Origin: an uncultured bacterium
GTDB lineage: Bacteria > Muiribacteriota > UBA9980
NCBI GenBank assembly: GCA_964545075.1
Contig: CAZJFS010000001.1
Location: forward strand, 33,890 to 97,889
DNA: 64,000 bases
Direction: 5' to 3'
A model generated the notes under the pieces. That model made no database searches and was not told the origin of the DNA. It was given only the letters and a program-made list of their open reading frames with translations. Each line of letters opens with the position of its first letter. Within the stretch, counting starts at the first letter, position 1. Shown in pieces: positions 13,310-59,921 of this stretch. Both the position numbers and the translations under genes were made by a program.

Positions 13310-13310
13310 G

Positions 13311-42083: not shown

Positions 42084-42130
42084 AACGGCCATCGTTAAGA
42101 GGCATTAAGCCTGCTGATGGCTGTTTTTCA
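42084..42130 (+). terminator. Hairpin + T-run after the precursor gene (probable partial terminator / attenuator)
   Basis: AACGGCCATC...GATGGCTGTT ~10-bp stem (one G-T wobble) with a ~22-nt loop, followed by TTTTT. Sits in the 132-nt gap between the precursor and the first modification enzyme. Confidence 0.4.
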
Positions 42131-42178
42131 TAGCATATGGCTTTTGATTTATTTATTTTTTGTTAAGGCGTTCATAAC

Positions 42179-44461: not shown

Positions 44462-44482
44462 TTATATTAAAAAGGATTCAGA

Positions 44483-45916
44483 ATGAATAAAGACTCGGAT
44501 ATTTTAAAATTTCGCGACGCGATTAATATTTCGGTGGTCTCCGGCGACGAAATCATAGTGCAGGACGAGATGTTTTCGCTAAAAATCCAGAATTGCTCAA
44601 AAGCGATAAGCTGTTTTTTAGACGCGATAAAAAACAGCGGCGGAAGCGAAGACTGTCTTTCGGAAATCGTTCTGGCCAATGGCGACAACAATGATCTGAT
44701 GAACTTTTATTACTATCTTGAAAGGTTTTCAAAACTTTGCATGATATCCAGAACGTTATGCGATAAAGGATTGAAAATGGTTACGCTAGAACCTATATCG
44801 CTTGGTTTTAAATGGAACGCTGAGCGCAAACTCGACGAAAATCAAAAACATGTGATGTCGCGGTTCGTCTTCTCTCGAAGAGACGGCGCGAAACATATAT
44901 GCGAATCGCCTTTATCGCTGGCCCGTCTGGTGATCATCGATGAAAAGTGCGCCGATTTTCTTCATTTCCTCTCATCGCCAATAAGCCTTGACGGGCTATG
45001 CGCGAAACTCCCTTCGCTCACGAAGGAATTTATCGAATATTTTCTTGAAACGCTTTTCAATTCAGGGTTCGTCGTCCCGGTTGCCGATGACGGGACGAGC
45101 GTCGAGGATAAGAGCGAAGCGCTGTTGCAGTGGGACTTCCATGATCTTTTGTTTCACTCGCGGACGCGCATAGGCCGTCATAATTACCCGAACGGCGCGA
45201 CATATCCTTATCTAAAAAAGATAGAGCCTCTTCCGGCGTATAAAGAGCCCATGACCGAAAACGGCATTGATTTATACAAACCCGATATCGAAACGCTTAA
45301 ATCCGAAGATTTTCCATTCACGCTCGTTTTAGAGCAGCGTCAATCGGTCAGAACTTACTCCGACCGGCCAATAAAGATGGAACAGCTCGGCGAATTTTTA
45401 TACCGGTCCTTCCGCATCAAGGAAGTGATCGACGCTCCGCCCGGCGAAGCCGAATCATATCAGGTCGGCCGCAGGACCTACGCCGGCGGCGGCGCATGCT
45501 ATGAACTTGAAATTTATCCGGTAATCAATAAATGCGAAGGGCTTGCGCGCGGAATATATCATTATGATCCGTTGAACCACAGATTGCATCTTATAAATGA
45601 TGATATGTTTTTCGTAGAGACGCTCGTACGGAGGGCGTCGATGTCCGCGGCCAAACTTTGCGTTCCGGAAGTATTATTCGCGATAACAGCCAGATTCGCT
45701 AGAATTTCATGGAAATACAGCGGAATGGCGTACGCCGCGATCTTAAAAAACGTGGGGTCATTATATCAAAATATGTATCTGGTCGCGACCGCCATGGACC
45801 TCGCCCCCTGCGCGCTCGGCAACGGCGAATCCGACGTCATCTGCAAAGCGGCGGGACTTGATTATATTTCAGAATCCGCCGTCGGCGAATTTATATTAGG
45901 CAATAAAAGGATTTAA
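44483..45916 (+). CDS. SagB/ThcOx-type FMN-dependent azoline dehydrogenase with N-terminal extension
   Basis: C-terminal nitroreductase-like domain (RQSVRTYSD...YAGGGACYELEIYPV...CALGNG) typical of SagB/McbC. The ~200-aa N-terminal extension is reminiscent of the RRE-like domains of cyanobactin ThcOx. 477 aa. Confidence 0.75.
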   Translation: MNKDSDILKFRDAINISVVSGDEIIVQDEMFSLKIQNCSKAISCFLDAIKNSGGSEDCLSEIVLANGDNNDLMNFYYYLERFSKLCMISRTLCDKGLKMVTLEPISLGFKWNAERKLDENQKHVMSRFVFSRRDGAKHICESPLSLARLVIIDEKCADFLHFLSSPISLDGLCAKLPSLTKEFIEYFLETLFNSGFVVPVADDGTSVEDKSEALLQWDFHDLLFHSRTRIGRHNYPNGATYPYLKKIEPLPAYKEPMTENGIDLYKPDIETLKSEDFPFTLVLEQRQSVRTYSDRPIKMEQLGEFLYRSFRIKEVIDAPPGEAESYQVGRRTYAGGGACYELEIYPVINKCEGLARGIYHYDPLNHRLHLINDDMFFVETLVRRASMSAAKLCVPEVLFAITARFARISWKYSGMAYAAILKNVGSLYQNMYLVATAMDLAPCALGNGESDVICKAAGLDYISESAVGEFILGNKRI

Positions 45917-45918
45917 TT

Positions 45919-47271
45919 ATGCGTAGAGTTATATGCACGTTTCCGGTGATGAAATTCACCGACGAGAAACCGGTCCAGATAAAAAACAGCTTTATCTCTC
46001 GAAGCTCTTCTCCATATAATATTTACCTGCTCGCATCGATAATGGAAAACAACGGATACGAGGTCGATATCAAGGATTGGATAAGCCTGAACTGCGACGT
46101 CGAAGAGGCCGCGAAGGAACTTCTGGAATATGATCTCGTTATGATATCGTGCCTTTCATGGTCATGGCCTCCGGTTATATTTATCATCGATTATCTTCGC
46201 AAAAAAAGAAACGACCAGATAATCGTCGTCGGCGGAGTGCAGGCATCTTTATTCGGCGTTCAGATCCTCGAAGAATTCGAGGTCGATTACGCAGTTTGCG
46301 GCGAGGCTGAAAGATCCATAATTCCGCTGATAGAAACTATAGAAAAAAAGGGCGATCCGCGCCGCGTACCAGGGCTCGTATATAAGGAAAACGGCGCTAT
46401 TATAAAAAACGAGCTGGCGTCCCTGCTGAATCCGTCGGAAATCGGCGAACTTCCGCTTCCGCTATATGAACGCCTTCCTAAAGATTCATGCAACTGGCTT
46501 TCGATACAATCCTCGCGCGGGTGCAGGAACCGCTGCATTTATTGCTCGGTGCCGTATCATCGCAGCTGGCGCCCGCTCGAACCGGAAAAATTCGTCGAAA
46601 AGATCATCGAATATTCGCCATTTCTTAAACGCACGCTTTCAGGAAAATTCATGATCATCGACGATAACTTCACCATAAATCCCGAAAGGTCCATCGCGAT
46701 AGCCAAGCTCTCGAAACAAAAAGGCGTTAAATTTGACGCCATCTGGAACGCCGAAGTTCCGGACCTTTATAATAGCGAGCTGCTCAGCGAAATGGCGCCA
46801 TTCACCGACGGGATTCTTGTAGGCGCGGAATCCTTCGATGCTGAAACGATCATCAAGATCGGCAAGGGTTATAAACCCGAAGATATCGTCGCTGGCGCCT
46901 TGAACGCTCAAAAATGCGGCATATCAAACAAACTCATATGCTCTTTTATTATAGGTTTTCCGTGGCAAACTAAAGAAATGATCATCGAGGAAATTAACCA
47001 AATATACGACCTGGTAAATCTGGCCGATCTAAACGTTATAATCAATTGGCTCACCCTTTCGCCGGGATCTCGGCTGTGGGCTGAAAAATTCAAACAGCCG
47101 ATCAAATTACGTGAATTTTCAAAACAATTCAGACGGATGCAGGAAAATATAAACATTCTTACGAATCAGGATATCGAAGAAATAAAAATGTATATAAAGC
47201 TTCTGCAATCCAACATAGAAAACGGTTATTACAGGTTCCAGCACCATCCCAGCATTTTTTATATTGTCTGA
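45919..47271 (+). CDS. B12-binding radical SAM enzyme (class B rSAM, probable C-methyltransferase)
   Basis: N-terminal B12-binding Rossmann-like region (IIVVGGVQAS...DYAVCGEAE), then the radical SAM cluster motif SSRGCRNRCIYCSVPY (CxxxCxxC). Confidence 0.75.
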   Translation: MRRVICTFPVMKFTDEKPVQIKNSFISRSSSPYNIYLLASIMENNGYEVDIKDWISLNCDVEEAAKELLEYDLVMISCLSWSWPPVIFIIDYLRKKRNDQIIVVGGVQASLFGVQILEEFEVDYAVCGEAERSIIPLIETIEKKGDPRRVPGLVYKENGAIIKNELASLLNPSEIGELPLPLYERLPKDSCNWLSIQSSRGCRNRCIYCSVPYHRSWRPLEPEKFVEKIIEYSPFLKRTLSGKFMIIDDNFTINPERSIAIAKLSKQKGVKFDAIWNAEVPDLYNSELLSEMAPFTDGILVGAESFDAETIIKIGKGYKPEDIVAGALNAQKCGISNKLICSFIIGFPWQTKEMIIEEINQIYDLVNLADLNVIINWLTLSPGSRLWAEKFKQPIKLREFSKQFRRMQENINILTNQDIEEIKMYIKLLQSNIENGYYRFQHHPSIFYIV

Positions 47272-47360
47272 TGGCATTCACTGATTTATCCGTGATTTTT
47301 CCATTCATGGATATTTCTTAATTCCGCGGCGAAAAAATATAATAAACGAAGGCGTGAATA

Positions 47361-49592
47361 ATGATAGAAAAACCTCTAATTAAACATCATTTCCAGATGG
47401 AGATCTTGAAAGAAAAAGTTTATCTTTTTTCTGAAAATGAAAATTTTATTCTTAAAGGTCGCCTTTATACCTCAATAGCGTCTCTTATGGATGGAAAAAG
47501 GTCCTGCCACGAAATAGCGGATATGCTTTCGGAAAATTTTTATCCCGCGGAAGTTTATTATGCTTTTGAAATAATGGAAAAAAAAGGCTATATAACCGAG
47601 GATTCACCATGTTTTAACGCTGAAGAAAAAAAATTCTGGAATTCGCTTGGGTTTCATACAAAAGACGTAGAAGAAAAACTTAAAAACACCCATCTTTCGC
47701 TTATATCTATAGGAAATCATCGGAAAATGGCTTCCCTTCTGAAGAAATATAAAATAGAAGTCTCTTCCGAGTCGAAATTTATGGTCGTTATAACGGATGA
47801 TTACATGCACGAAAGCCTTTCGGAGATCAACAGAGAAAACCTGAAAACCTGCAGGCCGTGGCTTCTAGTAAAACCTTCAGGGCTCATCCCTTCAATCGGG
47901 CCGCTTTTTATTCCCGGTAAAACTGCTTGTTATGAGTGCTTTTCCAACCGCTACAAAGCTAACAGGGAAATAAACGATTCTATTTTTCAAAAAATGCTGA
48001 AAGATAAAATTATGCCCTCGGCCACTATGCCTTTTACGGGCGATATTGTTTATCAAATGTCAGTTATGGAGATCGCCAGATATATAGCAGAAGGGAAAAA
48101 TGAAAGACTGGAAGGAAAAATCATAAGTTTTAATTCCCTGAATCTAAAAACAAAGGAACACATTCTCATAAAGCGACCCGAATGTAACTCTTGCGGAAAC
48201 CCTCATGAAAGAAGCCTTCTCTTTCCGGCGCAGATAAATTTACAAAGCAGAAAAAAGACGTATGTCACGGATGGAGATCATAGATCGTGCGACCCAGAAG
48301 CGACATTTGAAAAATATAAACACAATATCAGTGAATTTACAGGAGTTATAGCAAAATTTATAAACAATACAAGCGGTAATAAAGGGCCGCTTCACGTTTA
48401 CTTTTCCGGGCATAATCTCGCCCTTAATCCAGCCCATATAGCGGTCGAAAAGAACAGCCTTAGAAATCTCAGCGCCGGCAAAGGCATGACAGATATTCAG
48501 GCAAAGGTAAGTTCTCTCGCGGAAGCTTTGGAAAGATATTCGGGTATTTTTCGCGGCGACGAATACAGAATAAAAAGCACTTATAAAAAACTTGGCGATC
48601 AGGCAATTCATCCTAATAACTGCATGAATTACAGTAAAAGCCAGTATATAAATAGAATTGCCCTCAATAAAAGGGGGCTTCTTTTTCACACCGTCCCTCT
48701 TCCTTTCGATGAAGACATTGAAATAGAATGGTCTCCCGTCTGGTCTATATCGAAAAAAAACTGGAAATATCTGCCTACTTCTTACTGCTATTTCGGATAT
48801 AGGTATAAATACGAGGACGGCCGTGATTTTTTCGCCTGGGGAGATTCTAACGGTTTCGCTTCAGGCAATACCATAGAAGAAGCCATACTTCATGGTTTTT
48901 TTGAACTCGTAGAAAGAGACGCCGTCGCGATATGGTGGTATAATAAATTAACAAAGCCGGCCGTCGATCTTTCAAGTTTCAATCATCCATATATAAAAAA
49001 ATTAATGGATTATTATAATCTTTTAGGAAGAAACCTGTGGGTATTAGATCTCACTACCGATTTTAATATTCCTGTTTTCGCCGCCATTTCCATGAACCTG
49101 AAAAATAATATGGATGAAATTCTTTTTGCCTTTGGATGTCATTTCGATCCGGAAATTGCTCTTCTCAGATCTCTGTGTGAACTAAACCAGTTCGTTTCAA
49201 TCGCGATCGACAAACCTGAACACGATAACAATCATAATAACGATACGTCAAAGGCATGGTTGAAAAGCGCCGCGGTAAAAGATCATTCATATCTCGTGCC
49301 CGGAAAAACAATAAAAAGATTTCCGGATTATAAATCGCGTGCCACGGACGATCTTCTCAAAGATATACAATTATGTAACCAAGTAGTTGAAGAACTCGGC
49401 ATGGAAATGCTCGTACTCGATCAAACAAGAGCTGACGTAGGAATGAATGTAGTGAAGGTTATCGTACCGGGAATGAGGCATATGTGGGAAAGATTCAAGG
49501 AAGGACGTCTTTATGACGTTCCCGTAAAAATGAGATGGCTATCTGAAAAGAAAAATGAAAAAGAATTAAATCCAATAGGAGTATTTGTATAA
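47361..49592 (+). CDS. Fused E1-like + YcaO cyclodehydratase (PatD/TruD-like), copy 2 (paralog of 42179..44461)
   Basis: 743 aa. N-terminus HHFQMEILKEKVYLFSENENFILKGRLY parallels copy 1. CxxC motifs GKTACYECFSNRY and RPECNSCGNP. YcaO motifs GKGMTDIQAKVSSLAEALERYSG and FFELVERDAVAIWWYN. Both copies look intact. Confidence 0.85.
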   Translation: MIEKPLIKHHFQMEILKEKVYLFSENENFILKGRLYTSIASLMDGKRSCHEIADMLSENFYPAEVYYAFEIMEKKGYITEDSPCFNAEEKKFWNSLGFHTKDVEEKLKNTHLSLISIGNHRKMASLLKKYKIEVSSESKFMVVITDDYMHESLSEINRENLKTCRPWLLVKPSGLIPSIGPLFIPGKTACYECFSNRYKANREINDSIFQKMLKDKIMPSATMPFTGDIVYQMSVMEIARYIAEGKNERLEGKIISFNSLNLKTKEHILIKRPECNSCGNPHERSLLFPAQINLQSRKKTYVTDGDHRSCDPEATFEKYKHNISEFTGVIAKFINNTSGNKGPLHVYFSGHNLALNPAHIAVEKNSLRNLSAGKGMTDIQAKVSSLAEALERYSGIFRGDEYRIKSTYKKLGDQAIHPNNCMNYSKSQYINRIALNKRGLLFHTVPLPFDEDIEIEWSPVWSISKKNWKYLPTSYCYFGYRYKYEDGRDFFAWGDSNGFASGNTIEEAILHGFFELVERDAVAIWWYNKLTKPAVDLSSFNHPYIKKLMDYYNLLGRNLWVLDLTTDFNIPVFAAISMNLKNNMDEILFAFGCHFDPEIALLRSLCELNQFVSIAIDKPEHDNNHNNDTSKAWLKSAAVKDHSYLVPGKTIKRFPDYKSRATDDLLKDIQLCNQVVEELGMEMLVLDQTRADVGMNVVKVIVPGMRHMWERFKEGRLYDVPVKMRWLSEKKNEKELNPIGVFV

Positions 49593-49621
49593 ATGGCAGG
49601 TTTTAAATTTTGGAGGAATAA

Positions 49622-52600
49622 ATGAGCGATAAAAAATTTTTTCGTCTCACGCATCCGCAGAAACGCATCTGGTACACTGAAAAAACATATTTAAATACGG
49701 CATTCGCGAATCTGGCCAACGTCATCAGATACAGGCGTGAAATAAACGTCGAAATTCTCGAAAAAGCTATAAAATCAGTAATCTCAAAGCACGAAGGCAT
49801 TCGCCTCAGACTTTCCGGCGAACGCGAAGGCATCGAAGAATTTCAATACGTTTCTGATTCAATCCCTGAAAAGATCGACCACCTTGATTTTTCAGGCCCG
49901 CGCGGAACGGATAAATTAGAGGAATGGATCTGCTCAAACGCTTCAACCCCGTTTCCGATATTTGACTCCCCGCTTTACTATTTCGCGACCATCCGCTTTG
50001 CAAATAACGATTCGGGCTATTCGGATACGGGATTTTATTTCAAGCTTCATCATATAATTTCCGACGGCTGGACGCTCGCCATTATTTATAATCAGGTTCT
50101 CGATCATTATTTAAAGATTGAAAGCGGACTTGAAAGCGAAATCAGCGACAATCCGACTTATTTGAATTACATCGGGGACGAGGACAATTATTTAACTTCT
50201 CCGGAATTCGCGGAAGACGAAAAATTCTGGTTTGACGACCTGTCAGACAAGCTGGACGTATCATCATTGAATCAGGACAAACCGGTCGCCTCTTCCATAC
50301 GATCTAAAAGGGCTATTTTTACGATTTCAAGAGAATTGCGCGAAAAAATCCACGAATATAAGCGATCGGGAAGCACCACGGTCTTTAAAATTATAACCGC
50401 GGCATTCTTCATATATATTTCGCGCGTCAATTCGGCGAAGAATATAGCGATCACGACGGCCGTCCACGGCCGGAACAATTCAAAAATGAGATCCACCGCG
50501 GGAATGTTCGTCGGCACCATACCATTGCGGATAACGATAGACGGGCGGGACACCTTTGAAAAGATCGTCTCGAGCCTCGGCGAAAAATTGAACTACATAA
50601 TTAAGAAGCCCGCCAGATACCCTTTTGACATGCTCATCAACAGGATGCGCGAAGAAAAAAATCCCAACGCCGATATTATGCTTGAATGCCCGAGCGTCGT
50701 CGGCCATCCTGACGATAAAAACGAGGACATATCGTTTATAAACCATTATCAGAGCTATGAACCTTCATGCCTTGCCATGCACATAAATCCCTTTGGAACC
50801 GACGCAAAAGGCAAACTTGACATCATACTCGATTACCAGACGGAACTATTTTCCCATGAAAATATCGAAACGGTCTTTAATTCACTTTCATGCATATTGA
50901 ACGATGCGCTGGATAACGTTAAAAAGTCCGTCTGCGATTTGAATATGATTTCGGAAGAAGAAAAAAGAAAGGTCTTAGTAGATTTTAACCGGACCGAAGA
51001 ACAATTTTCTGGCGGAGAGACGCTTTTCGATCTTTTCGAGGAGGCGTCAAAAAAATATCCGCGAAGGACGGCGCTCGTTTACGACGACGTTTCCATAACC
51101 TATTCGGAGCTTTCGGACAAAGTCGGGCGGCTCGCCTCGAGGCTCGCGAATCTCGGCGTCGGACCCGAAAAAATAGCGGCGATATACGCGCAACGCTCGC
51201 AATATTACGTTATAGCTATGCTCGCCATAATGAAGGCGGGCGGAGCGTATCTGCCGATCGACGTTTCATATCCCCGCGAACGGGTCAATTTCATGCTTAA
51301 AGACGCCGAAGTCTCGGCCGTGCTTACCATGGAAAACCTTAACGATAAATTCGACTGCGACGCTTCACGCGTCTTTTTAGATGACGAAAATTCATATACC
51401 GGCGCTCCATGCGATTTAAAATCTCAGGCTGCGGCAAGAAATCTCGCGTATATAATATATACCTCGGGTTCCACCGGCAAACCCAAAGGCGTTATGATAG
51501 AACACCGCTCGGCCGTAAACATGATATGCTGGAGCATAAAGCATTATCAAATGAGCCACCAGGACCGGTGCGCCCAGTTCGCGTCGTTCGCTTTCGACGC
51601 CTCGGTGCCGCAGACATTTTCGCCTCTCGCCAGAGGCGCGGAGCTTCATATTTTAAAAGACGATTTGCGTTATTCGCCATTGCTCGCCAACGATTATTTT
51701 GAAAAAAACGGCATAACCTATGCCGATCTTCCGACCCAGTTCTGCGAGCAATTCATCAGGGAAACGAACAATCACTCGTTAAGAAGGGCTACCACTGGCG
51801 GTGAAAAATTAAAAAATGCGCCGGAGAACATAAATTTCGTGCTTACCGATGAATACGGCCCGACCGAATGCACCGTCACCGCGACATATTATGACGTGGA
51901 CGGAAAATATTCAAAGACGCCCATTGGAAAACCTATATCTAACATCAGGGTGTATATTCTCGATAAAAAAGATCTTCCCGTTCCGGTAGGAGCGCCGGGA
52001 GAACTATGCGTCGCGGGCGCGGGCCTGGCCAGAGGCTATCTCAACAGGCCCGAGCTGACGGTGGAAAAATTCGTCGCCGACCCGTTCATGCCGGGCGAAA
52101 AAATGTACCGCACCGGCGATCTCGCCAGGTGGCTGCCCGACGGCAATATCGATTATCTCGGCCGCATCGATCATCAAGTCAAAATAAGAGGATTCAGAGT
52201 CGAGCTGGAAGAGATACAAAATGAGATAATCAAACATCCAATGGTCAGCGACGCCGTTATAGCGAACGGCAAGAACGCCGACGGCGATGATTTTATTTCG
52301 GCGCATATAATACTGAAAAAAGAAGCGGACGGGATTAATTTTTCACATGAGCGAATCAATGAATTTCTTTCAAAAACTCTTCCAAATTATATGCTGCCCT
52401 CGAAAATAATGTTCATCGACAGGATACCGCTGACATCGGGCGGCAAGGCCGATAAAAAAGCGCTTCTGGCAATGCTGCCTGAAGAAGGCCGACTGGCCGC
52501 GTTCGTCGCGCCGTCGAATGAAACGGAAAAAACGCTGGCCGGAATCTGGTCGGAACTTTTAAACGTCAAAAAAATCGGCGTAACGGATGATTTTTTTGAG

Positions 52601-55600
52601 CTCGGCGGCCATTCGCTGAAAGCGGCCTCTCTTCAATTGAGCGTTAAAAAGGCTTTCGCAGTTGAAATATCGCTTCACGATATTTTTTCGGCCCCGACGA
52701 TAAAGGCGCTGGCCGGAATCATTAAAAATAATTCGCGCACGGCCGGTTCTTCGATCACGCGAGCGCCTGAAAGAAAACACTATCCGCTTTCAGCCGCGCA
52801 AAAAAGGCTTTTCGTGATGGACCGGATATCCGGCGGAAAAACCACATATAACCTGACCTCGGCATTTAAGATACGCGGCCCGCTCGACGCGACGAGGTTT
52901 GGAAACGCCATTCGCGCGGCCATCGAAAGGCATTCGGCTTTCGGCACCCGCTTCGAGGAGGTCGACGGCGAGCCGGTGGCCGTCATCGAAAAAAACGTTA
53001 AATTCAAACGCAATTATATTGAAACCAATGAAGAAAGCGCCATCGCAGCGATCAGGGATTTCATAAAGCCTTTCGATCTTAAAAGAGCGCCGCTTTTCAG
53101 GATACTGCTCATTAAGTACGCCGAAGACGGGCATATTTTCGTCTTCGACGCCCATCACATAATTTTCGATGGTATATCGTCTAACGTATTTATGCATGAA
53201 ATCTGCGAGTTATACGCCGGACGCACTTTAGAAAAACTCGAATTCGATTATCAGGATTACGCGGTATGGCAGAACGAGGTCATGCCCGAATCCTCTTCAA
53301 TTCAAAAACAGCAGGATTACTGGTTGAACGTTTTTAAAAACGACGTCGAGCCCCTTGAGATCCCGACCTCCAGGCCCAGAAATGCCGACATATCATATTC
53401 GGGTTCGAGGGTGCTTTTAAATCTCGACGGGCTTTCAAACGATCTTGAAAAGCTTTCGACGAGATGCTCGGCGACTAATTTCACGACGCTGATGGCTTTA
53501 TTTTTCGTATTGCTGCATAAATATTCCGGCCAGTCCGATATCGTTTCAGGGGTTCCGGCCGCCGGCCGTGAAAACGCCGAATTCGAGAAAACCGTCGGCA
53601 TGTTCGTGAACACTCTGGCCATAAGATCTTACCCGGAAGCATGTAAGCCCTTCGCTTCGTTCGTAAATGAAATTAAAAATTCCTTTGTTTCGGCGCTCGA
53701 CAATCAACAATATCAGTTCGACCGGCTCGTCGAAAAGCTCGGCTTGAAACGCATGCCGGGCCGCAATCCTCTCTTCGACGTCATGTTCGCCTATGAAGAC
53801 ATGGAAAACTCGACCTTCAAAACGGAAAACATCGAAATGACCAATTACGCCTTCGACGCCGGCATATCGAAATTCGACCTCACTCTTTTCGCCTCGCGCG
53901 GAAACGGCTCTCTGGAACTTTCGCTCGAATACCGCGACTCTCTTTTTGAAAGAGCCATGGCTGAGAGGTTTTTAAATCATTTCGCCGCTCTCTTGAAAAA
54001 CGCCGCGGCCGATCCCGAAGCCACGATAGGCGACATCGACGCAATGGGGGAAAACGACCTTCAAAAATTAATACGAGGTTTCAATGCAACCGGCGCCGCT
54101 TATCCGGCGGACACCACTCTAATCTCGCTTTTCGAAAAAAAAGCCTCGGAAAGCCCTGATTTGTGCGCGCTCGTATATGACGGTAAAACAATGACTTACT
54201 CGGAACTCAATGAAAAGGCCAACCGCCTCGCGTGGCGGCTCAAAGAAAATATATATTCTAAAAATGAAATATTCGGGATACTCCTAGACCGATCTTTTGA
54301 AATGGTGGTTTCGATACTTGCGGCGCTCAAGGCCGGCGGCGCTTACCTTCCTATAGATCCGTCCTATCCGGCCGAAAGGATAGAGTATGTCATTTCAGAC
54401 AGCGGGATTAAAACGCTTTTAACCGAAAAAAAGCATATGGCGGCCGTTTCCTTTAATAACAATATGATCGATATTCATGAAGGAACATCGTATTCCGCCA
54501 GAACCGAAAACCCCGAACCCGTAAATAGCGGCGAGGACATAATATACATAATTTATACTTCCGGTTCCACGGGCCGGCCGAAAGGCGTAATGGTAAAGCA
54601 CAAGGGCGCGCTCAATTATATCTGGTGGTGCAAAAAAGTCTACGCCGAAGACGGCGCGTGCGATTTTCCGCTTTATTCCTCCATATCTTTCGATCTCACC
54701 GTAACTTCCATATTCACTCCGCTTATTTGCGGCGGAAAGATCGTCATATACGGCGAGCGTGAAAAGGAAACGCTTATCGACAGAATTATAGCGGAAGATA
54801 ACGTCGATATAGTGAAGCTCACTCCAACTCACCTTCAGATCATTGAAGGTATGAAGATAAACTGTAAAAAGATCAGAAAATTCATAGTCGGCGGCGAAGA
54901 TCTCAAGGCCGATCTGGCCATGAAGATATTCAAAAAATTCAATAATAAAATCCGGATATTCAACGAATATGGCCCGACGGAAACCACCGTCGGCTGCATG
55001 ATCTACGAATTTTCACCTTCCGACGCAAAAGCGTTATCGGTTCCGATAGGAATTCCGGCCGCGAACACCATGATTTACATACTTGGAAAAGACCTGAAAC
55101 CCGTTCTTCCCGGAACGACGGGCGAGATATATATTTCCGGAGACGGCGTGGCCCGCGGATATCTCAATAAAAGCGAAATGACTGCCGCTAAATTCGTCAG
55201 CGATCCGTTCAACCCGGAAAGGACAATGTACAAAACCGGCGATCTTGCGCGAATGCTTCCAAGCTGGAATGTAGAATTTCTGGGGCGCATCGACGATCAG
55301 GTAAAACTCAGAGGCTTCAGGATCGAGATTGGAGAGATCGAGGCCGAACTTTTAAGGCATTCATCGATCCGCGAAACCGCAGTATTATTAAGGGAAGACG
55401 CGCAGTCGGGCAAATATCTTTGCGCATACTACACCGTTTCAGGCGAAACCGGGCCCGGGCCCGAGCCTGATATTAAAGAGCTCAAGGCGCACCTCGCCAA
55501 ACGGCTGCCTTATTATTTCATTCCGGACGTTTTCATGAAGCTTGAAAATATTCCGGTAACGGCCAACGGCAAACTGGACAGAAAGGCGCTGCCGGACCCG

Positions 55601-57523
55601 CGCGAAAACGCGGACGCAAGGGCGCAATATGCAAGCCCCCGAAACGATACCGAACGATACATGGCGAAAGTCTGGTCCGATATTCTCGGCGTAAAACGGA
55701 TAGGTATCGACGATAATTTTTTCGAGCTCGGCGGTCATTCCCTAAAAGCGGTTAAAGTCGCGATGCGGCTTTCGGGCGATTTTGAAATTTCCGTCAACGA
55801 TATTTTTGAGCATCAGAGCATACGCAGCTTATCGGAATCGGTGAAGCCCGTTTCAGGAAATTTAAAAACGAAACTCAACGAATTGAAATATTTCGCGCCG
55901 CGGCCGATGAAAATGCGGGATGAAAAGATACTTCAAAAACTTCAAGAATATAACGAATCAATTCAAAAAATCGAATATACTGCGACGGATCGGCAAAAAA
56001 AATATGAAAACATCTTTCTCAGCGGTTCCACGGGTTATTTAGGTTCATACATTCTTAACGAGCTCCTCGAAAATAAAAGCGGAAATATACATCTTTTGAT
56101 AAGGGCGAAAGATCGCGATGAAGCATTTTCGCGCCTTAAAGAAAGATATGAATATTATTTCGGGAAAGGCTCGCTCGATAAACACGGCGGCAGGATCTTC
56201 GCGCACGCCGGCGATCTGTCAAAAGAAAATTTCGCGCTCGCGAACGATGAATATTCCATCTTATGCAAAAGCGTGGACTGCATAATTAATTCAGCGGCCG
56301 ATGTGAGGCATTTCGGACATTATCAGCAATTTTTCGACGCCAACGTATCGAGCCTGGAAAATCTTATAAAATTCGCGTCGACAGAAAAAAACAAGGACAT
56401 AAACCACATTTCCACGATGTCGGTGGCTTCGGGGGACATCTCCGGAGTTTCAGAAACGCTTTTCACCGAAGATGACGTAGATATCGGACAAGCGCTGACA
56501 AATTACTATCTCAAGACGAAGTTTCTGGCGGAAAAAGCCGCGGTTGCGGCAAGATCAGCCGAAATAAGCGTCAATATATTCAGGGTGGGAAACCTCACAT
56601 TCAATTCGAAAACGGGATTGTGTCAGCGCAATATCCAGGAAAACGCCTTTTATAAAATAATAAAATCCCTTACCGTCCTCGGATACGTTCCAAATTCATC
56701 CGATGAAGCCGAATTTTCATTCGTCGATTGCGCCGCCCGCGCAATAACGCTCTTATTCGACAGAAATGAAAACGGGATCTTCCACATAGTCAACCCTAAA
56801 GCCGTAAAGCTTTCAAAGCTGCTTTCGGCGGTTGAAACCGGGCTCGATATAAAGGTGTGCGATTTTAAAAGCTTTATCGGCGAACTTCAAAAAAATTGCG
56901 ACGACAGAATTTTCAGGCCGGAAATAGACGAACTTTTGCTTCACCGCGACTGGGCCGATGAAATGCAATGCCAGACAAGATATTGCACGCTTTCAGACCG
57001 GACGGTCAATCTGCTTTTAAAACTGGGTTTTGAATGGCCCGACGCTGACGGTTCGAAATGCTTCGAAATGATAGTCACGGCGCTCGGCGAGCGGATAAAT
57101 TTTTTGAAACGCCATCCCTTGTTCGCGAAATTATCCGACAAAACGATTAAACGCGCGGCCCTGATGATGCGCGAAATACATTATAAAGACGAGGAAACGA
57201 TCGCGTGGGAAAACGAACCTTCCCCGGGGGCGAACATTATAACCGAAGGCGTGGTCGAAATATCGATGCATTCGAAAAATTCATGGATCGGCACGATCGG
57301 CGTCCTTGGAAAAGACGAACTTATCGGATTCGACAGCGCATTTAACGGAGGGATTTCAAGCATCATAGCTGGGGCCGTCATGGGACAGGCCAACGCTTTA
57401 TATATTTCAAATGAAAATATTATCAAAATAGCTATGATAGAACCGCTTTTTGCGATCAATATCGCGTCGGAATTATCTAAAAAATTGATCAATGCGCAAA
57501 ATATAATAATCAATCTCGACTGA
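49622..57523 (+). CDS. Bimodular non-ribosomal peptide synthetase C-A-T-C-A-T-R with an extra C-terminal cNMP-binding-like domain
   Basis: 2633 aa, SD GGAGG. C1 HHIISDGWT (aa ~143). A1 YTSGSTGKPKGV (~aa 610) and YRTGDLARW...GRIDHQVKIRGFRVELEEI. T1 FFELGGHSLKA (~aa 990). C2 HHIIFDGIS (~aa 1175). A2 YTSGSTGRPKGV (~aa 1644) and YKTGDLARM...GRIDDQVKLRGFRIEIGEIE. T2 FFELGGHSLKA (~aa 2037). Thioester reductase LSGSTGYLGSYILNELL (~aa 2135). The last ~140 aa match the cNMP-binding fold. Starts 29 nt after the second cyclodehydratase gene. Confidence 0.9.
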   Translation: MSDKKFFRLTHPQKRIWYTEKTYLNTAFANLANVIRYRREINVEILEKAIKSVISKHEGIRLRLSGEREGIEEFQYVSDSIPEKIDHLDFSGPRGTDKLEEWICSNASTPFPIFDSPLYYFATIRFANNDSGYSDTGFYFKLHHIISDGWTLAIIYNQVLDHYLKIESGLESEISDNPTYLNYIGDEDNYLTSPEFAEDEKFWFDDLSDKLDVSSLNQDKPVASSIRSKRAIFTISRELREKIHEYKRSGSTTVFKIITAAFFIYISRVNSAKNIAITTAVHGRNNSKMRSTAGMFVGTIPLRITIDGRDTFEKIVSSLGEKLNYIIKKPARYPFDMLINRMREEKNPNADIMLECPSVVGHPDDKNEDISFINHYQSYEPSCLAMHINPFGTDAKGKLDIILDYQTELFSHENIETVFNSLSCILNDALDNVKKSVCDLNMISEEEKRKVLVDFNRTEEQFSGGETLFDLFEEASKKYPRRTALVYDDVSITYSELSDKVGRLASRLANLGVGPEKIAAIYAQRSQYYVIAMLAIMKAGGAYLPIDVSYPRERVNFMLKDAEVSAVLTMENLNDKFDCDASRVFLDDENSYTGAPCDLKSQAAARNLAYIIYTSGSTGKPKGVMIEHRSAVNMICWSIKHYQMSHQDRCAQFASFAFDASVPQTFSPLARGAELHILKDDLRYSPLLANDYFEKNGITYADLPTQFCEQFIRETNNHSLRRATTGGEKLKNAPENINFVLTDEYGPTECTVTATYYDVDGKYSKTPIGKPISNIRVYILDKKDLPVPVGAPGELCVAGAGLARGYLNRPELTVEKFVADPFMPGEKMYRTGDLARWLPDGNIDYLGRIDHQVKIRGFRVELEEIQNEIIKHPMVSDAVIANGKNADGDDFISAHIILKKEADGINFSHERINEFLSKTLPNYMLPSKIMFIDRIPLTSGGKADKKALLAMLPEEGRLAAFVAPSNETEKTLAGIWSELLNVKKIGVTDDFFELGGHSLKAASLQLSVKKAFAVEISLHDIFSAPTIKALAGIIKNNSRTAGSSITRAPERKHYPLSAAQKRLFVMDRISGGKTTYNLTSAFKIRGPLDATRFGNAIRAAIERHSAFGTRFEEVDGEPVAVIEKNVKFKRNYIETNEESAIAAIRDFIKPFDLKRAPLFRILLIKYAEDGHIFVFDAHHIIFDGISSNVFMHEICELYAGRTLEKLEFDYQDYAVWQNEVMPESSSIQKQQDYWLNVFKNDVEPLEIPTSRPRNADISYSGSRVLLNLDGLSNDLEKLSTRCSATNFTTLMALFFVLLHKYSGQSDIVSGVPAAGRENAEFEKTVGMFVNTLAIRSYPEACKPFASFVNEIKNSFVSALDNQQYQFDRLVEKLGLKRMPGRNPLFDVMFAYEDMENSTFKTENIEMTNYAFDAGISKFDLTLFASRGNGSLELSLEYRDSLFERAMAERFLNHFAALLKNAAADPEATIGDIDAMGENDLQKLIRGFNATGAAYPADTTLISLFEKKASESPDLCALVYDGKTMTYSELNEKANRLAWRLKENIYSKNEIFGILLDRSFEMVVSILAALKAGGAYLPIDPSYPAERIEYVISDSGIKTLLTEKKHMAAVSFNNNMIDIHEGTSYSARTENPEPVNSGEDIIYIIYTSGSTGRPKGVMVKHKGALNYIWWCKKVYAEDGACDFPLYSSISFDLTVTSIFTPLICGGKIVIYGEREKETLIDRIIAEDNVDIVKLTPTHLQIIEGMKINCKKIRKFIVGGEDLKADLAMKIFKKFNNKIRIFNEYGPTETTVGCMIYEFSPSDAKALSVPIGIPAANTMIYILGKDLKPVLPGTTGEIYISGDGVARGYLNKSEMTAAKFVSDPFNPERTMYKTGDLARMLPSWNVEFLGRIDDQVKLRGFRIEIGEIEAELLRHSSIRETAVLLREDAQSGKYLCAYYTVSGETGPGPEPDIKELKAHLAKRLPYYFIPDVFMKLENIPVTANGKLDRKALPDPRENADARAQYASPRNDTERYMAKVWSDILGVKRIGIDDNFFELGGHSLKAVKVAMRLSGDFEISVNDIFEHQSIRSLSESVKPVSGNLKTKLNELKYFAPRPMKMRDEKILQKLQEYNESIQKIEYTATDRQKKYENIFLSGSTGYLGSYILNELLENKSGNIHLLIRAKDRDEAFSRLKERYEYYFGKGSLDKHGGRIFAHAGDLSKENFALANDEYSILCKSVDCIINSAADVRHFGHYQQFFDANVSSLENLIKFASTEKNKDINHISTMSVASGDISGVSETLFTEDDVDIGQALTNYYLKTKFLAEKAAVAARSAEISVNIFRVGNLTFNSKTGLCQRNIQENAFYKIIKSLTVLGYVPNSSDEAEFSFVDCAARAITLLFDRNENGIFHIVNPKAVKLSKLLSAVETGLDIKVCDFKSFIGELQKNCDDRIFRPEIDELLLHRDWADEMQCQTRYCTLSDRTVNLLLKLGFEWPDADGSKCFEMIVTALGERINFLKRHPLFAKLSDKTIKRAALMMREIHYKDEETIAWENEPSPGANIITEGVVEISMHSKNSWIGTIGVLGKDELIGFDSAFNGGISSIIAGAVMGQANALYISNENIIKIAMIEPLFAINIASELSKKLINAQNIIINLD
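57100..57520 (+). other. C-terminal cyclic-nucleotide-binding (CAP-effector)-like domain within the NRPS (coordinates approximate)
   Basis: LKRHPLFAKLSDKTIKRAALMMREIHYKDEETIAWENEPSPGANIITEGVVEISMH...GVLGKDELIGFDSAF...ALYISNENIIKIAMIEPLFAINIASELSKKL follows the cNMP-binding consensus (hP.F..L.......a.....y..ge.I..eG......y.I..G.v......g.l..Ge.fGe.a........A.....l.....f..l....P.f...l...l). Confidence 0.5.
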
Positions 57524-57542
57524 TAACGGAGGAAGGAAAAAA

Positions 57543-58994
57543 GTGGTAAATAACAGCGAATCTGACGGCGGAACCGGAAAAAAGACCGGACCGTCTTCAG
57601 TTTATATTATATTCGTCCTCGCGCTGGGCGTTTTCATGGTCAATCTCGACGCCAGCATAGTCAATATAGTTCTGCCCACGCTGGCCAAATTATTCAGCGT
57701 AGACATGTACGTAGTGTCGCGCGTGGTGCTTTCATATCTGCTTTCATTCAGCGGTTTTCTGCTGATATTCGGCCGGTTGAGCGACATTCACGGCGCCAAT
57801 AAAATATTTGGATACGGTTTTCTCGTCTTCACATTGTCATCGGTATTATGCGCGACATCGCGGACTTTTGTAATGCTTGAAATTTCAAGATTCATGCAGG
57901 GAATAGGGGCGGCCATGCTGGCCTCGACATATTCGGCTCTTGTAATAAAGCTTCTGCCGCCTGAAATAAGAGGACGGGCGTTCGGCTTCATCACCGTCGC
58001 CGGAGGAGCCGGTTTCGCCATGGGCGCGCCCGTCGGAGGCTATCTCACCCATTATTTCAACTGGCGCTGGATATTTTGGATGAACGTCCCTATCGGCATA
58101 TTTTCACTTATCTCGTCGTGGAAACTGATAAAGGAAAGATCTGAAGGCAATATAACAACCGGAGCTTTTGATAGGACCGGAGCTTTTTTAAGTTTCGGAG
58201 GGCTCGTCCTGATCACTTATCTTTTAAATTCAGCAAAAAATTATCCGCCGACATCTATCATACCGTGGGCCGGAATCGCCGTTTTCATAGCGGTTTTCGC
58301 GTATTTTTTAAGAGTCGAAAAACGCCACCCTGAACCGCTGCTCGATCTTTCATTGTTTTCGAACAGAAATTTCAATTTTTCTTTCATCGCAAATTTTTTC
58401 GTTGTAATGACGCTGGACGGAATGAATTTTCTGTTTCCATTTTTTTTCGAACTCGGACGCGGCATGAAGCCCGATAAAATAGGAATGCTGCTGATGCTGT
58501 TTCCTCTGATTTCAATGTTTGTAAGCCCGGTGGCCGGATATTTCGCCGATCGAAAAGGCCCGAGGGCGGTCTGCGTTTTTTCTACGGTCATGCTGGCTTT
58601 ATCGGTCGCAATGCTCTGCTTCATAGATCTGACCACTTCGATCTATTACATAATAATCACTCTTATAATATTCGGGTGCTCGCTCGCCATGTTCTTCACC
58701 GCGAACACGAGCCTTATGATGTGCCACGCCCCGGCCGGCCGCGAAGGCATCACTTCGGCCATGGTTTCTTTTAACGCCAATCTTGGAACGCTTTTAGGCG
58801 TTTGTTTTTTTGAAAGTATTTTTTCATACGGGCTTCCGGCGGGCATAGTTTCAAACCAGCTCATGGAAGGCGCTTCAAGGATGATAGCCACCGGCTTTAA
58901 CCACGGCGCCATTTTCGCGCTGATAATAAGCCTGATGGCCGCCAGATCGTCTTTCATAGCGCGTGAAAAAAAGACCGGCGCCATTTCCGCATGA
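57543..58994 (+). CDS. MFS transporter, DHA2 (EmrB/QacA, 14-TMS) drug-efflux family
   Basis: 483 aa with ~14 hydrophobic segments. N-terminal MFS motifs (LGVFMVNLDASIVNIVLP, GRLSDIHG). Immediately downstream of the NRPS, consistent with export of the product. Confidence 0.75.
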   Translation: MVNNSESDGGTGKKTGPSSVYIIFVLALGVFMVNLDASIVNIVLPTLAKLFSVDMYVVSRVVLSYLLSFSGFLLIFGRLSDIHGANKIFGYGFLVFTLSSVLCATSRTFVMLEISRFMQGIGAAMLASTYSALVIKLLPPEIRGRAFGFITVAGGAGFAMGAPVGGYLTHYFNWRWIFWMNVPIGIFSLISSWKLIKERSEGNITTGAFDRTGAFLSFGGLVLITYLLNSAKNYPPTSIIPWAGIAVFIAVFAYFLRVEKRHPEPLLDLSLFSNRNFNFSFIANFFVVMTLDGMNFLFPFFFELGRGMKPDKIGMLLMLFPLISMFVSPVAGYFADRKGPRAVCVFSTVMLALSVAMLCFIDLTTSIYYIIITLIIFGCSLAMFFTANTSLMMCHAPAGREGITSAMVSFNANLGTLLGVCFFESIFSYGLPAGIVSNQLMEGASRMIATGFNHGAIFALIISLMAARSSFIAREKKTGAISA

Positions 58995-59003: not shown

Positions 59004-59921
59004 TTAGCGCTCTATAGCGTCGAGTATCCGCTTCCCGCCGCCGTCTAAAAGCTCGTTGGCCAGTTCAAAACCCACTATGACGTTTTTAATGCCAACGCGG
59101 GTCCCTTCAACCTTCGTTTTACCTTCAGGATCGAATATGGCCCCGGTCATGTGAAAACGTCCGTCGGACAATTGTTCGCAATAAACCCCTACGGGCATCT
59201 GACATCCGCCGTTAAGCCGGGCCAGAAAAGTTCTTTCAGCCTCAACCTCTAAAAAACTCCTGACATCGTTAAGGCATTTGACGAGAGCGTCGATATTTTT
59301 GTCTCCACGCCTGCTTTCAATAGCCAGAGCGCCCTGGCCGCAGCATGGAACTATGATTCTGTCGTCTAATATCTGAGAAATTCTCTCTCCCCAGCCCATT
59401 CTTTTCACGGAAGCGCACGCGAGAACTATCGCGTCATACTGCCCTTCATCGAGTTTTTTCAATCGCGTGTTGACGTTGCCGCGAAGCTCGACTATTTTCA
59501 AGTCAGGGCGCTGATATAGCAACTGCGCCTTTCTTCTCATGCTTGAAGTGCCTATGCTGGCGCCTTTCGCCAGATCGACAAGCCTTTTCTTATCCCGGGT
59601 TATCAGAGCGTCGAAAGGATCTTCCCTCTTCATTACCGCGCTGATATAAAGTTTCCTGGTCATTTCCACGGGCATATCTTTAGCGCTGTGGACGGCCAGA
59701 TCCGCCCTTCCTTCAATAACCGCGTTTTCGATATCTTTTACGAAAAGCCCCTTGCCGCCTATTTTAGCGAGCGAAGAATCAAGCATTTTGTCGCCTTCGG
59801 TAACTATTTCAAGAAATTCATAATCGTTGCCGGGATGATTTTTTTTCAAAATTTCACGAACATGCTCAGCCTGCCATATCGCGAGCGGGCTTTTTCTCGT
59901 TGCTATTATAATTTTCGACAT
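59004..59921 (-). CDS. hemC: Hydroxymethylbilane synthase (porphobilinogen deaminase)
   Basis: IIIATRKSPLAIWQAEHV...GGKGLFVKDIENAVIEGRADLAVHSAKDMP matches HemC closely. Confidence 0.9.
   Translation of the reverse strand: MSKIIIATRKSPLAIWQAEHVREILKKNHPGNDYEFLEIVTEGDKMLDSSLAKIGGKGLFVKDIENAVIEGRADLAVHSAKDMPVEMTRKLYISAVMKREDPFDALITRDKKRLVDLAKGASIGTSSMRRKAQLLYQRPDLKIVELRGNVNTRLKKLDEGQYDAIVLACASVKRMGWGERISQILDDRIIVPCCGQGALAIESRRGDKNIDALVKCLNDVRSFLEVEAERTFLARLNGGCQMPVGVYCEQLSDGRFHMTGAIFDPEGKTKVEGTRVGIKNVIVGFELANELLDGGGKRILDAIER

What the first reader, a model, noticed from the sequence alone, without database searches (positions are those of the whole stretch)
49622..58994. Bimodular C-A-T-C-A-T-R NRPS plus MFS exporter directly contiguous with the RiPP genes. 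Possible hybrid RiPP-NRPS locus
The NRPS start codon lies 29 nt after the second cyclodehydratase stop, and the MFS gene follows 19 nt after the NRPS, all on the same strand. That implies one transcriptional unit running from precursor to exporter. Established knowledge: the C-A-T-C-A-T-R architecture (starter C domain, terminal thioester reductase) releases N-acyl dipeptide aldehydes (protease-inhibitor / pyrazinone type). Co-transcription of such an NRPS with a TOMM/proteusin pathway is not, to my knowledge, a described arrangement. Either two products share an exporter and regulation, or they form a genuinely hybrid metabolite.
Basis: partly seen in the sequence, partly recalled or inferred. 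Interest (0 to 1): 0.8.

Follow-up and report, generated by a model that had tools for sequence, protein, structure and literature searches.

The report
NRPS–exporter cassette inserted beside RiPP operon
A two-module peptide synthetase and its efflux pump sit right behind a ribosomal-peptide (TOMM) gene cluster in this Candidatus Wallbacteria genome. A close relative lacks exactly these two genes and every other relative keeps the two systems apart, so they are neighbours by a recent 9.4 kb insertion or deletion, not a hybrid pathway.

Summary
A 2633-aa NRPS (49622-57523) starts 29 nt after the second YcaO cyclodehydratase, and a DHA2-type MFS gene (57543-58994) follows 19 nt later, all on the + strand. 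The architecture is C(starter)-A-T-C(LCL)-A-T-R with intact core motifs.

- An about 85%-identical relative (L008) goes straight from the YcaO#2 stop to hemC and lacks exactly window 49593-58993.
- A more distant relative (L007) has the whole RiPP set without an NRPS.
- Ten distinct NRPS-family loci carry no YcaO, SagB, rSAM or NHLP gene.
- The usual partners of this NRPS are an orthologous MFS and a PPTase.
- The 77% NRPS ortholog (L001) stands alone, with a promoter-like site upstream and hairpin-plus-T-run terminators on both sides.

No coupling enzyme is present. Most likely this is a separable NRPS+MFS cassette that makes and exports an N-acyl-X-Asn aldehyde-type lipodipeptide. In this lineage it landed at the 3' end of the TOMM operon and is probably read through from its promoter.

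The modest novelty lies in the uncharacterised R-CNB NRPS family from candidate phyla, not in a RiPP-NRPS hybrid.

The parts
49593..58993 (+). 9.4 kb segment (NRPS + MFS with their short spacers) that is present here but absent from the ~85%-identical relative L008. This is the indel unit.
   Evidence: blastn: L008 3688-5936 = window 47350-49592, and L008 5941-6888 = window 58994-59939.
49622..57523 (+). NRPS gene, 2633 aa: C(starter)-A-T-C(LCL)-A-T-R-CNB
   Evidence: full-length orthologs at 77/56/48/42/39% identity
49637..50956 (+). C1, starter-type condensation domain (HHIISDG at aa 143)
   Evidence: BLASTP: 206 bits to the SrfAA C1 (lipoinitiation) against 100-110 bits to the SrfAA LCL domains and 98 bits to its own C2. 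The N-terminal QKRIWYTEK motif is shared with SrfAA.
51035..52471 (+). A1 adenylation domain; 10-residue code DAPDTGEVTK (specificity unassigned)
   Evidence: Code read against a GrsA reference that reproduces the known SrfAA codes. It shares 6 of 10 positions with the Glu code DAKDLGVVDK.
52532..52717 (+). T1 carrier domain (GGHSL, Ser at aa 998)
   Evidence: Pfam PP-binding 971-1032; motif
52772..54070 (+). C2, LCL-type condensation domain (HHIIFDG at aa 1178)
   Evidence: Pfam 1051-1483; 300-321 bits to the SrfAA LCL domains against 109 bits to the starter C
54134..55591 (+). A2 adenylation domain; code DLTKIGEVGK (Asn-type), conserved in all orthologs
   Evidence: Position 331 was read as G from the ungapped NEYGPTETTVGC motif. 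The Asn assignment rests on the published Stachelhaus code, recalled from memory.
55658..55849 (+). T2 carrier domain (GGHSL at aa 2037); boundaries approximate
   Evidence: Pfam PP-binding, second stretch; motif
56012..57061 (+). Terminal thioester reductase (GSTGYLG at aa 2135, YLKTK at aa 2296)
   Evidence: Pfam NAD_binding_4 2133-2375. NCBIfam: AusA 197 bits, and TIGR01746 at 194 bits, which is just under its cutoff of 213. The C-terminal subdomain matches NRPS and AusA R-domain structures.
57089..57520 (+). C-terminal cyclic-nucleotide-binding-like (CNB/CRP-type) domain, aa ~2489-2633
   Evidence: PF00027 at 23.4 bits on the tail alone, below the cutoff of 27.5. A profile of 8 orthologs hits PKG and CRP CNB domains at E=4e-14. 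Orthologs carry precomputed PF00027.
57543..58994 (+). DHA2-type (EmrB/QacA-like) MFS efflux pump, 483 aa; partner of the NRPS
   Evidence: Pfam MFS_1. TIGR00711 at 210 bits, under its cutoff of 230. 36-42% identical to the MFS genes of the MFS-NRPS-PPTase cassettes.
41738..49592 (+). Neighbouring TOMM/NHLP RiPP operon: precursor 41738-42046, YcaO#1 42179-44461, SagB/ThcOx dehydrogenase 44483-45916, B12-rSAM 45919-47271, YcaO#2 47361-49592
   Evidence: conserved without the NRPS in L007 and L008
41650..41678 (+). Promoter-like site (TTGACA-17-TAATAT) 60 nt before the precursor gene; candidate start of the transcript that may run through to the MFS
   Evidence: This is a consensus match only; the number of such sites in the region is not above shuffled sequence.
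59004..59921 (-). hemC (porphobilinogen deaminase), convergent; right-hand flank of the indel
   Evidence: Pfam. Its 90%-identical ortholog in L008 directly abuts YcaO#2.

Best explanation
Two separate biosynthetic units lie side by side. Unit 1 (41738-49592) is an NHLP-leader TOMM operon. Unit 2 (49593-58993) is a separable cassette: a bimodular NRPS with a terminal reductase, plus its own DHA2 MFS efflux pump. In this Candidatus Wallbacteria lineage a 9.4 kb indel placed unit 2 between the YcaO#2 stop codon and the convergent hemC gene. An insertion here is the more parsimonious reading; a precise deletion in the relative is not excluded. Inferred mechanism of unit 2: the starter C domain N-acylates the amino acid loaded by A1 (specificity unknown). 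C2 joins it to an Asn-type residue loaded by A2. The NAD(P)H-dependent R domain releases the acyl-dipeptide reductively as an aldehyde (or alcohol). The MFS exports it. The CNB-like tail probably modulates the enzyme or mediates dimerisation. The cassette arrived without the upstream promoter region seen in its closest ortholog and sits 29 nt behind YcaO#2, so here it is most likely transcribed by read-through from the RiPP operon promoter. That would be co-expression by accident of position, with two separate products. Shown: anatomy, domain types, the indel, and the independent segregation. Inferred: product chemistry, transcription, and the direction of the indel.
For: Indel: L008 (YcaO#2 86% aa, hemC 90% aa) joins the YcaO#2 stop to hemC with a 16 nt spacer. 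blastn breaks exactly at window 49592/58994.

RiPP genes without the NRPS: L007 has precursor-YcaO-YcaO-SagB-rSAM and then unrelated genes.

NRPS without RiPP genes: L001 (77%), L002/3 (56%), L015 (48%), L014, L013, L004, L021/22 (41-42%), L005 and L006 (39%), and L016 have no tblastn hit to precursor, YcaO, SagB or rSAM within their flanks of up to 10 kb.

L001: homology stops at window 49612 and 57524. That NRPS has hairpin-plus-T-run terminators on both sides and a ~300 nt upstream region with TTGACT..TATGAT.

The MFS belongs to the NRPS: five distinct cassettes are MFS-NRPS (L004, L005, L006, L013, L021/22). The best out-of-lineage hit to the window MFS among 5.8 billion proteins (P0245, 42%) lies directly before a 2629-aa NRPS and a PPTase.

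Domain typing.

No GNAT, ATP-grasp or other coupling enzyme in the operon or its flanks.

Reductive release to dipeptide aldehydes by such R domains, and stabilisation by an N-acyl tail: PMC8210680, PMC12327764.
Against: No expression or product data exist. The 29 nt and 19 nt spacers, and the absence of any terminator-like site in them, mean the two units probably share a transcript here, so some functional interplay cannot be excluded. No PPTase is encoded in the 64 kb window, although most orthologous cassettes carry one. GC content and codon usage of the NRPS and MFS are typical of the window, so there is no compositional proof of recent acquisition and the direction of the indel is unresolved. 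In the 76-77% relatives the NRPS (L001) and the MFS (L019) are each alone, so even the NRPS-MFS pairing is not universal. A1 specificity is unassigned, and the Asn call for A2 rests on a code recalled from the literature.
Confidence: 0.78

Rival explanations
1. Genuine hybrid pathway: the NRPS product is covalently joined to the modified NHLP core peptide, for example by the aldehyde capping the N-terminus or by an acyl-dipeptide transfer, giving a RiPP-NRP hybrid metabolite.
For: Same strand, spacers of 29 and 19 nt, and no terminator-like site between the genes. RiPP/non-RiPP hybrids do exist but are rare (10.1101/2023.10.25.564083).
Against: The linkage is confined to one lineage: an ~85% relative lacks the NRPS+MFS precisely. 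The RiPP set and the NRPS each persist alone elsewhere. Known hybrids use a dedicated joining enzyme, such as an acyltransferase or ATP-grasp, and none is encoded here. The R domain releases a free small molecule.
Confidence: 0.03
2. Functional but non-covalent coupling that was selected after the fusion: the two products act together or share the MFS and regulation. For example, a peptide-aldehyde protease inhibitor might protect the RiPP or control leader processing, which would make the new seven-gene operon adaptive.
For: Probable co-transcription. No RiPP-dedicated exporter or leader protease lies within the window. The arrangement is seen in three assemblies of this organism.
Against: L007 and L008 run the same RiPP set without this MFS or NRPS. 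The MFS is a DHA2-type small-molecule pump that is orthologous to the MFS genes linked to this NRPS. The three assemblies are one organism at 99.9% identity, so they do not show that selection has maintained the arrangement.
Confidence: 0.14
3. Artefact: the adjacency in the window, or its absence in L008, is a metagenome mis-assembly or chimera.
For: All sequences are metagenome-assembled, and L008 is a single 7 kb contig.
Against: The YcaO#2-to-NRPS junction recurs in contigs built with different assemblers (L009 NODE_, L010 k141_) at 99.9% identity. The boundaries in L008 fall exactly at gene ends, with no shared repeat on which an assembler could collapse the sequence. GC and codon usage are uniform across the junctions.
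Confidence: 0.03

Closest known systems
Reductase-terminated bimodular NRPSs that make dipeptide aldehydes or pyrazinones: AusA/PznA of Staphylococcus aureus, the gut-commensal family of Guo et al. 2017, and the ruminopeptin (rup) NRPS of Ruminococcus bromii
   Same: Two A-T modules joined by an LCL condensation domain, and a terminal SDR-type thioester reductase. The R region scores 197 bits against the NCBIfam AusA model and matches AusA R-domain structures. The expected chemistry is two-electron reductive release of a dipeptide aldehyde, with N-acyl tails stabilising the aldehyde (PMC8210680; PMC12327764). A Clostridium C-A-T-C-A-T-R homolog (P0102) aligns over 94% of the protein at 35% identity.
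   Different: There is an extra C-terminal CNB-like domain. A2 has an Asn-type code and A1 an unassigned code, rather than the hydrophobic or aromatic codes of AusA. The hosts are Candidatus Wallbacteria and other uncultured phyla. Identity to any characterised enzyme is only 30-36%. The product has not been observed.
Lipoinitiation (starter) C domain of surfactin synthetase SrfAA
   Same: C1 scores about twice as high against the SrfAA C1 as against any LCL domain, and shares the N-terminal QKRIWYTEK motif and HHxxxDG.
   Different: Only 28.5% identical. The acyl donor is unknown, and no acyl-CoA ligase or ACP lies nearby.
Known RiPP/non-RiPP hybrid clusters (pheganomycin, goadvionins, lipolanthines, lipoavitides, cacaoidin, e-series thiopeptides)
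   Same: RiPP genes and genes of another natural-product class lie in one gene string.
   Different: Those clusters keep the two parts together across producers and encode a joining enzyme. Here the parts segregate independently and no joining enzyme is present.
NHLP-leader TOMM clusters (TIGR03793 precursor with fused SagC/D-type YcaO cyclodehydratase and SagB dehydrogenase; proteusin-like because of the NHLP leader and B12-rSAM)
   Same: The neighbouring operon meets the NCBIfam cutoffs for the NHLP leader, the TOMM leader-binding domain, the SagD-type YcaO and SagB.
   Different: It is the neighbour, not part of the NRPS unit. It has two paralogous cyclodehydratases (43-44% identical), and no leader protease or exporter lies nearby.
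CNB domains of CRP/FNR regulators and of PKG/PKA
   Same: The ortholog profile matches PKG and CRP CNB domains at E=4e-14 to 1e-10, across the beta-barrel and the flanking helices.
   Different: It is fused to the end of an NRPS. The phosphate-binding-cassette Glu and Arg appear to be replaced (GFD... and ISSIIAGA here, against GEKAL...RTA in PKG), so cNMP binding is doubtful.

Membership tests
Hybrid RiPP-NRPS (RiPP/non-RiPP hybrid) biosynthetic gene cluster | The RiPP genes and the non-RiPP genes co-occur in homologous loci of other lineages | tested here: not met
   RiPP genes only in L007 and L008. NRPS only, or MFS-NRPS-PPTase, in ten distinct loci. Both together only in the window's own strain.
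Hybrid RiPP-NRPS (RiPP/non-RiPP hybrid) biosynthetic gene cluster | A dedicated enzyme joins the two moieties (GNAT-type acyltransferase, ATP-grasp ligase or similar) | tested here: not met
   Pfam and NCBIfam searches of all operon genes and both flanks show none. For the requirement.
Hybrid RiPP-NRPS (RiPP/non-RiPP hybrid) biosynthetic gene cluster | The product contains both a ribosomal and a non-ribosomal part | not testable with these tools
   Needs metabolite analysis.
Reductase-terminated bimodular NRPS (dipeptide aldehyde / pyrazinone type) | Two complete modules (A-T, C-A-T) with intact core motifs | tested here: met
Reductase-terminated bimodular NRPS (dipeptide aldehyde / pyrazinone type) | A terminal thioester reductase with a Rossmann GxxGxxG motif and catalytic YxxxK | tested here: met
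   NAD_binding_4 at 1.2e-48. Motifs at aa 2135 and 2296. AusA model 197 bits; TIGR01746 at 194 bits is slightly under its cutoff of 213.
Reductase-terminated bimodular NRPS (dipeptide aldehyde / pyrazinone type) | N-terminal starter (lipoinitiation) C domain, for the N-acylated subclass | tested here: met
   206 bits to the SrfAA C1 against 98-110 bits to LCL domains. No formal C-domain phylogeny was run.
Reductase-terminated bimodular NRPS (dipeptide aldehyde / pyrazinone type) | The released product is a dipeptide aldehyde | not testable with these tools
   Inferred from the domain order only.
NHLP-leader TOMM cluster (the neighbouring unit) | NHLP leader precursor, leader-binding YcaO cyclodehydratase and SagB dehydrogenase | tested here: met
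   TIGR03793 83.5 bits (cutoff 50.9); TIGR03882 124-136 (cutoff 36.9); TIGR03604 264-270 (cutoff 219); TIGR03605 166 (cutoff 78.4)
Proteusin | NHLP-type leader together with radical-SAM epimerase and/or C-methyltransferase tailoring of a long core | tested here: inconclusive
   The NHLP leader is present. The B12-rSAM matches RiPP C-methyltransferase models only weakly (TIGR03975 at 38 bits against a cutoff of 282). No PoyD-type epimerase was seen. The core is only ~20 aa.
DHA2 (EmrB/QacA) MFS efflux pumps | Match to the DHA2 subfamily model | tested here: inconclusive
   TIGR00711 at 209.9 bits, below its cutoff of 230.2. Pfam MFS_1 at 171 bits is well above its cutoff.
Cyclic-nucleotide-binding (CNB) domain | Match to PF00027 and conserved phosphate-binding-cassette residues (Glu and Arg) | tested here: inconclusive
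   The window tail alone scores 23.4 bits, below the cutoff of 27.5. The ortholog profile hits CNB structures at E=4e-14. The Glu and Arg positions appear substituted. The AF2 single-sequence model was unusable.

The most novel reading that the evidence does not exclude
The indel created, in this one Wallbacteria lineage, a newly born operon in which an acyl-dipeptide aldehyde and an azol(in)e RiPP are made from one transcript and have begun to interact. The interaction could be a covalent cap on the peptide or a protease-inhibitor partner. That would be a RiPP-NRPS hybrid caught at its origin. Separately, and more probably (about 0.25), the CNB-like tail makes this NRPS family a ligand-gated assembly line whose reductive release is switched by a small molecule.
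Probability: 0.04. Interest if true: 0.75.

Novelty: new variant of a known kind. Interest (0 to 1): 0.3.

Why it matters
Tight, same-strand adjacency of two biosynthetic classes is often scored as a "hybrid" cluster by eye or by cluster-calling software. This case shows how one close relative can separate real hybrids from chance neighbours: a precise 9.4 kb presence/absence difference settles it. What remains of interest:
- An uncharacterised lipodipeptide-aldehyde-type NRPS family has a conserved Asn-type second module and a C-terminal CNB-like domain. It is spread over uncultured phyla (Wallbacteria-like, Bacteroidota, Muiribacteriota, Cyanobacteriota). If its product is an Asn-aldehyde, that would suggest an inhibitor of Asn-specific or other cysteine/serine proteases, but this is speculation.
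- A sensor-type domain fused to a release domain could be a new way of regulating an NRPS.
- The locus is a natural example of operon growth by cassette insertion.

Tried and rejected
- Exact look-up of the window NRPS: not on record.
- Metagenome scan with YcaO#2: returned only a 2.3 kb fragment of the same organism.
The 4-sequence version gave 5 loci.
- PDB sequence search with C1: did not discriminate C-domain subtypes, so I compared C1 directly with the SrfAA starter and LCL domains instead.
- Promoter and terminator scan: 35 sites of each kind against 30.3±5.3 and 27.5±5.2 in shuffles, so it is not informative beyond the strong site before the precursor.
- GC, GC3 and codon-usage test for foreign origin of the NRPS+MFS: no signal, so the direction of the indel stays unresolved.
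- Search for a PPTase in the window by tblastn: none found.
- AF2 of the R+CNB region from a single sequence: pLDDT 33.8, discarded.
- Guo et al. 2017 was not held under PMC5302092, an id I recalled from memory, so I cited it through reviews.
- Literature searches joining cNMP/CNB domains with NRPSs: nothing relevant.
- Assembly chimera: considered and rejected.
- The MFS as the RiPP exporter: considered and rejected.


Full report
**1.

The + strand between 41.7 and 59.0 kb carries these genes:
- an NHLP-leader precursor, 41738-42046 (core after GG: TWGTIGSACIATAGTAYCHG)
- a fused leader-binding/YcaO cyclodehydratase, 42179-44461
- a SagB/ThcOx-type dehydrogenase, 44483-45916
- a B12-binding radical-SAM enzyme, 45919-47271
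- a second cyclodehydratase, 47361-49592
- a 2633-aa NRPS, 49622-57523
- a 483-aa MFS transporter, 57543-58994

The spacers are 29 nt and 19 nt, and each holds a GGAGGA ribosome-binding site. Pfam gives C-A-T-C-A-T-R, and every catalytic motif is intact.

The identical YcaO proteins in public data are annotated as Candidatus Wallbacteria MAG proteins. Two other assemblies of the same organism contain the YcaO#2-to-NRPS junction at 99.9% identity, so the junction is real.

The last ~145 residues form a cyclic-nucleotide-binding-like (CNB) domain. It scores 23.4 bits on PF00027 for the tail alone. A profile of eight orthologs hits PKG and CRP CNB structures at E=4e-14.

**2. What the NRPS is**

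- C1 is a starter (lipoinitiation) type. It scores 206 bits against the SrfAA starter C domain, but only 98-110 bits against LCL domains. It also shares the N-terminal QKRIWYTEK signature.
- C2 is LCL: 300-321 bits against LCL domains, 109 bits against the starter.
- I read the specificity codes against a GrsA reference that correctly reproduced the three SrfAA codes.
- A1 reads DAPDTGEVTK. It is unassigned and shares 6 of 10 positions with the Glu code DAKDLGVVDK.
- A2 reads DLTKIGEVGK. From my knowledge of the Stachelhaus table this is the Asn code. It is conserved in every ortholog, whereas A1 varies.
- The R region is AusA-like.

By established knowledge of such assembly lines (PMC8210680; PMC12327764), the expected product is an N-acyl-X-Asn aldehyde, or the alcohol. 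This is an inference from domain order, not something shown here.

**3. The decisive comparison**

Full-length orthologs exist at 77, 56, 48, 42 and 39% identity. Their neighbourhoods never contain RiPP genes:

| Locus | NRPS identity | Arrangement |
|---|---|---|
| L001 | 77% | NRPS alone between unrelated genes |
| L002/3 | 56% | methyltransferase-NRPS-PPTase |
| L004, L005, L006, L021/22 | 39-42% | MFS-NRPS-PPTase |
| L013 | 42% | MFS-NRPS (the contig ends soon after the NRPS) |
| L014, L015, L016 | 30-48% | no RiPP genes |

In the other direction, the closest relatives of YcaO#2 give two informative loci:
- L008 (86% aa) has the same gene order, SagB-rSAM-YcaO#2. The YcaO#2 stop codon is followed 16 nt later by the end of a convergent hemC, which is 90% identical to the hemC that follows the MFS in the window.
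- blastn breaks exactly at window 49592 and 58994 (raw sequence).
- L007 (71%) has the whole RiPP set and no NRPS.

A tblastn table over all 22 loci shows RiPP genes and NRPS together only in the window's own strain.

**4. The MFS goes with the NRPS**

- The MFS is a DHA2-type small-molecule efflux pump.
- It is 36-42% identical, over its full length, to the MFS genes that precede the NRPS in the Bacteroidota-type cassettes. That is the same divergence as the NRPS itself shows.
- I searched 5.8 billion proteins with the MFS alone. The best hit outside its own lineage (P0245, 42%) lies immediately before a 2629-aa C-A-T-C-A-T-R NRPS and a PPTase. The MFS proteins of L004/L013 and of L005/L006 are 61-77% identical to other top hits.
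- The RiPP operons of L007 and L008 have no such pump.
- The pairing is not absolute. In the 76-77% relatives the NRPS (L001) and the MFS (L019) each stand alone.

**5. Transcription**

- In L001 the NRPS has an upstream terminator hairpin, a ~300 nt leader region with TTGACT..TATGAT, and a downstream terminator. Homology to the window begins only 10 nt before the start codon.
- In the window that leader region is missing, and nothing promoter-like or terminator-like stands out near the junction.
- The one strong sigma-70-like site lies 60 nt before the precursor gene.
It looks like a by-product of where the cassette sits, and it cannot be tested here.

**6. Direction and origin**

GC, GC3 and codon usage of the NRPS and MFS are typical of the window. 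An insertion here is more parsimonious, because two RiPP loci lack the cassette and the NRPS orthologs sit in other contexts. A precise deletion in the L008 lineage is not excluded.

**7. No hybrid machinery**

Known RiPP/non-RiPP hybrids rely on a joining enzyme and keep their parts together (10.1101/2023.10.25.564083). None of the genes in or around the operon is a GNAT, an ATP-grasp or a stand-alone C domain. I put a covalent hybrid at about 3% and selected non-covalent interplay at about 14%.

**8. What is mildly new**

- The R-CNB tail defines a family. About 70 of the best 150 representatives in a library of 1.84 billion proteins extend from the R subdomain into the CNB part. These are mostly ~2600-aa proteins, with some of ~3600 and ~4900-5200 aa.
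- GTDB hits are Bacteroidota, Muiribacteriota, Cyanobacteriota and unclassified MAGs.
- The cassette's phosphate-binding Glu and Arg look substituted, so another ligand or a structural role is likely.
- I found no paper in the held library that links CNB domains to NRPSs. That search is limited.

**9. Caveats**

- No PPTase is encoded within the 64 kb window.
- All sequences are metagenomic.
- The product, the A1 substrate, the acyl donor and the CNB function are all inferred.
- The single-sequence AF2 model was unusable.

**Verdict**

The novelty is modest: a CNB-tailed variant of a known NRPS kind. Interest 0.3.

Noticed in passing
window 57089-57520 (NRPS aa ~2489-2633): A CNB/CRP-like domain is fused after the terminal reductase of the NRPS. 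It is conserved in all full-length orthologs. About 70 of the top 150 representative proteins share the R-CNB tail. The phosphate-binding Glu and Arg seem to be replaced. No literature on such a fusion was found.
   Followed up: partly
window 47361-49592 (YcaO#2) and spacer 47272-47360: YcaO#2 is the compositional outlier of the whole window (GC 0.383, GC3 0.368, against 0.45-0.47 and 0.53-0.54 for its operon neighbours). The rSAM-to-YcaO#2 spacer is 89 nt here against 23 nt in L008, with an AT-rich TATAAT-containing insert.
   Followed up: no
window 41738-49592: The TOMM operon carries two paralogous fused cyclodehydratases (43-44% identical). No leader protease or peptide exporter lies within the window, and the flanks are housekeeping genes: TrmFO, hemC, glycogen and acetate metabolism. 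Gene order differs in L007 (precursor-YcaO-YcaO-SagB-rSAM), with TrmFO and a glycosyltransferase inverted on the other side.
   Followed up: partly
window 58994-59004 and L008 5936-5953: Convergent genes end only 9 nt apart (MFS and hemC) in the window and 16 nt apart (YcaO#2 and hemC) in L008, which leaves no room for a terminator hairpin between them. The transcripts must overlap or terminate inside the opposing gene.
   Followed up: no
L002 2467-4251 (-) versus window 32030-33826 (+): A ~595-aa protein with no Pfam match lies 4 kb from the NRPS in L002 (the 56% ortholog). It is 67% identical at the DNA level to a gene 16 kb upstream of the NRPS in the window. This could be loose residual synteny or a lineage-specific family.
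   Followed up: no
L017/L018 4802-6228 versus window 40183-41610: TrmFO is called as two ORFs in the public Wallbacteria MAG (GCA_035352535.1) but is a single 475-aa ORF in the window. A frameshift or sequencing error in that assembly is the likely cause.
   Followed up: no
L014 (Candidatus Muiribacteriota MAG), 2-13573: An R-CNB-terminated NRPS gene is followed by further NRPS modules downstream, so the R-CNB tail also occurs in larger multi-gene NRPS loci.
   Followed up: no
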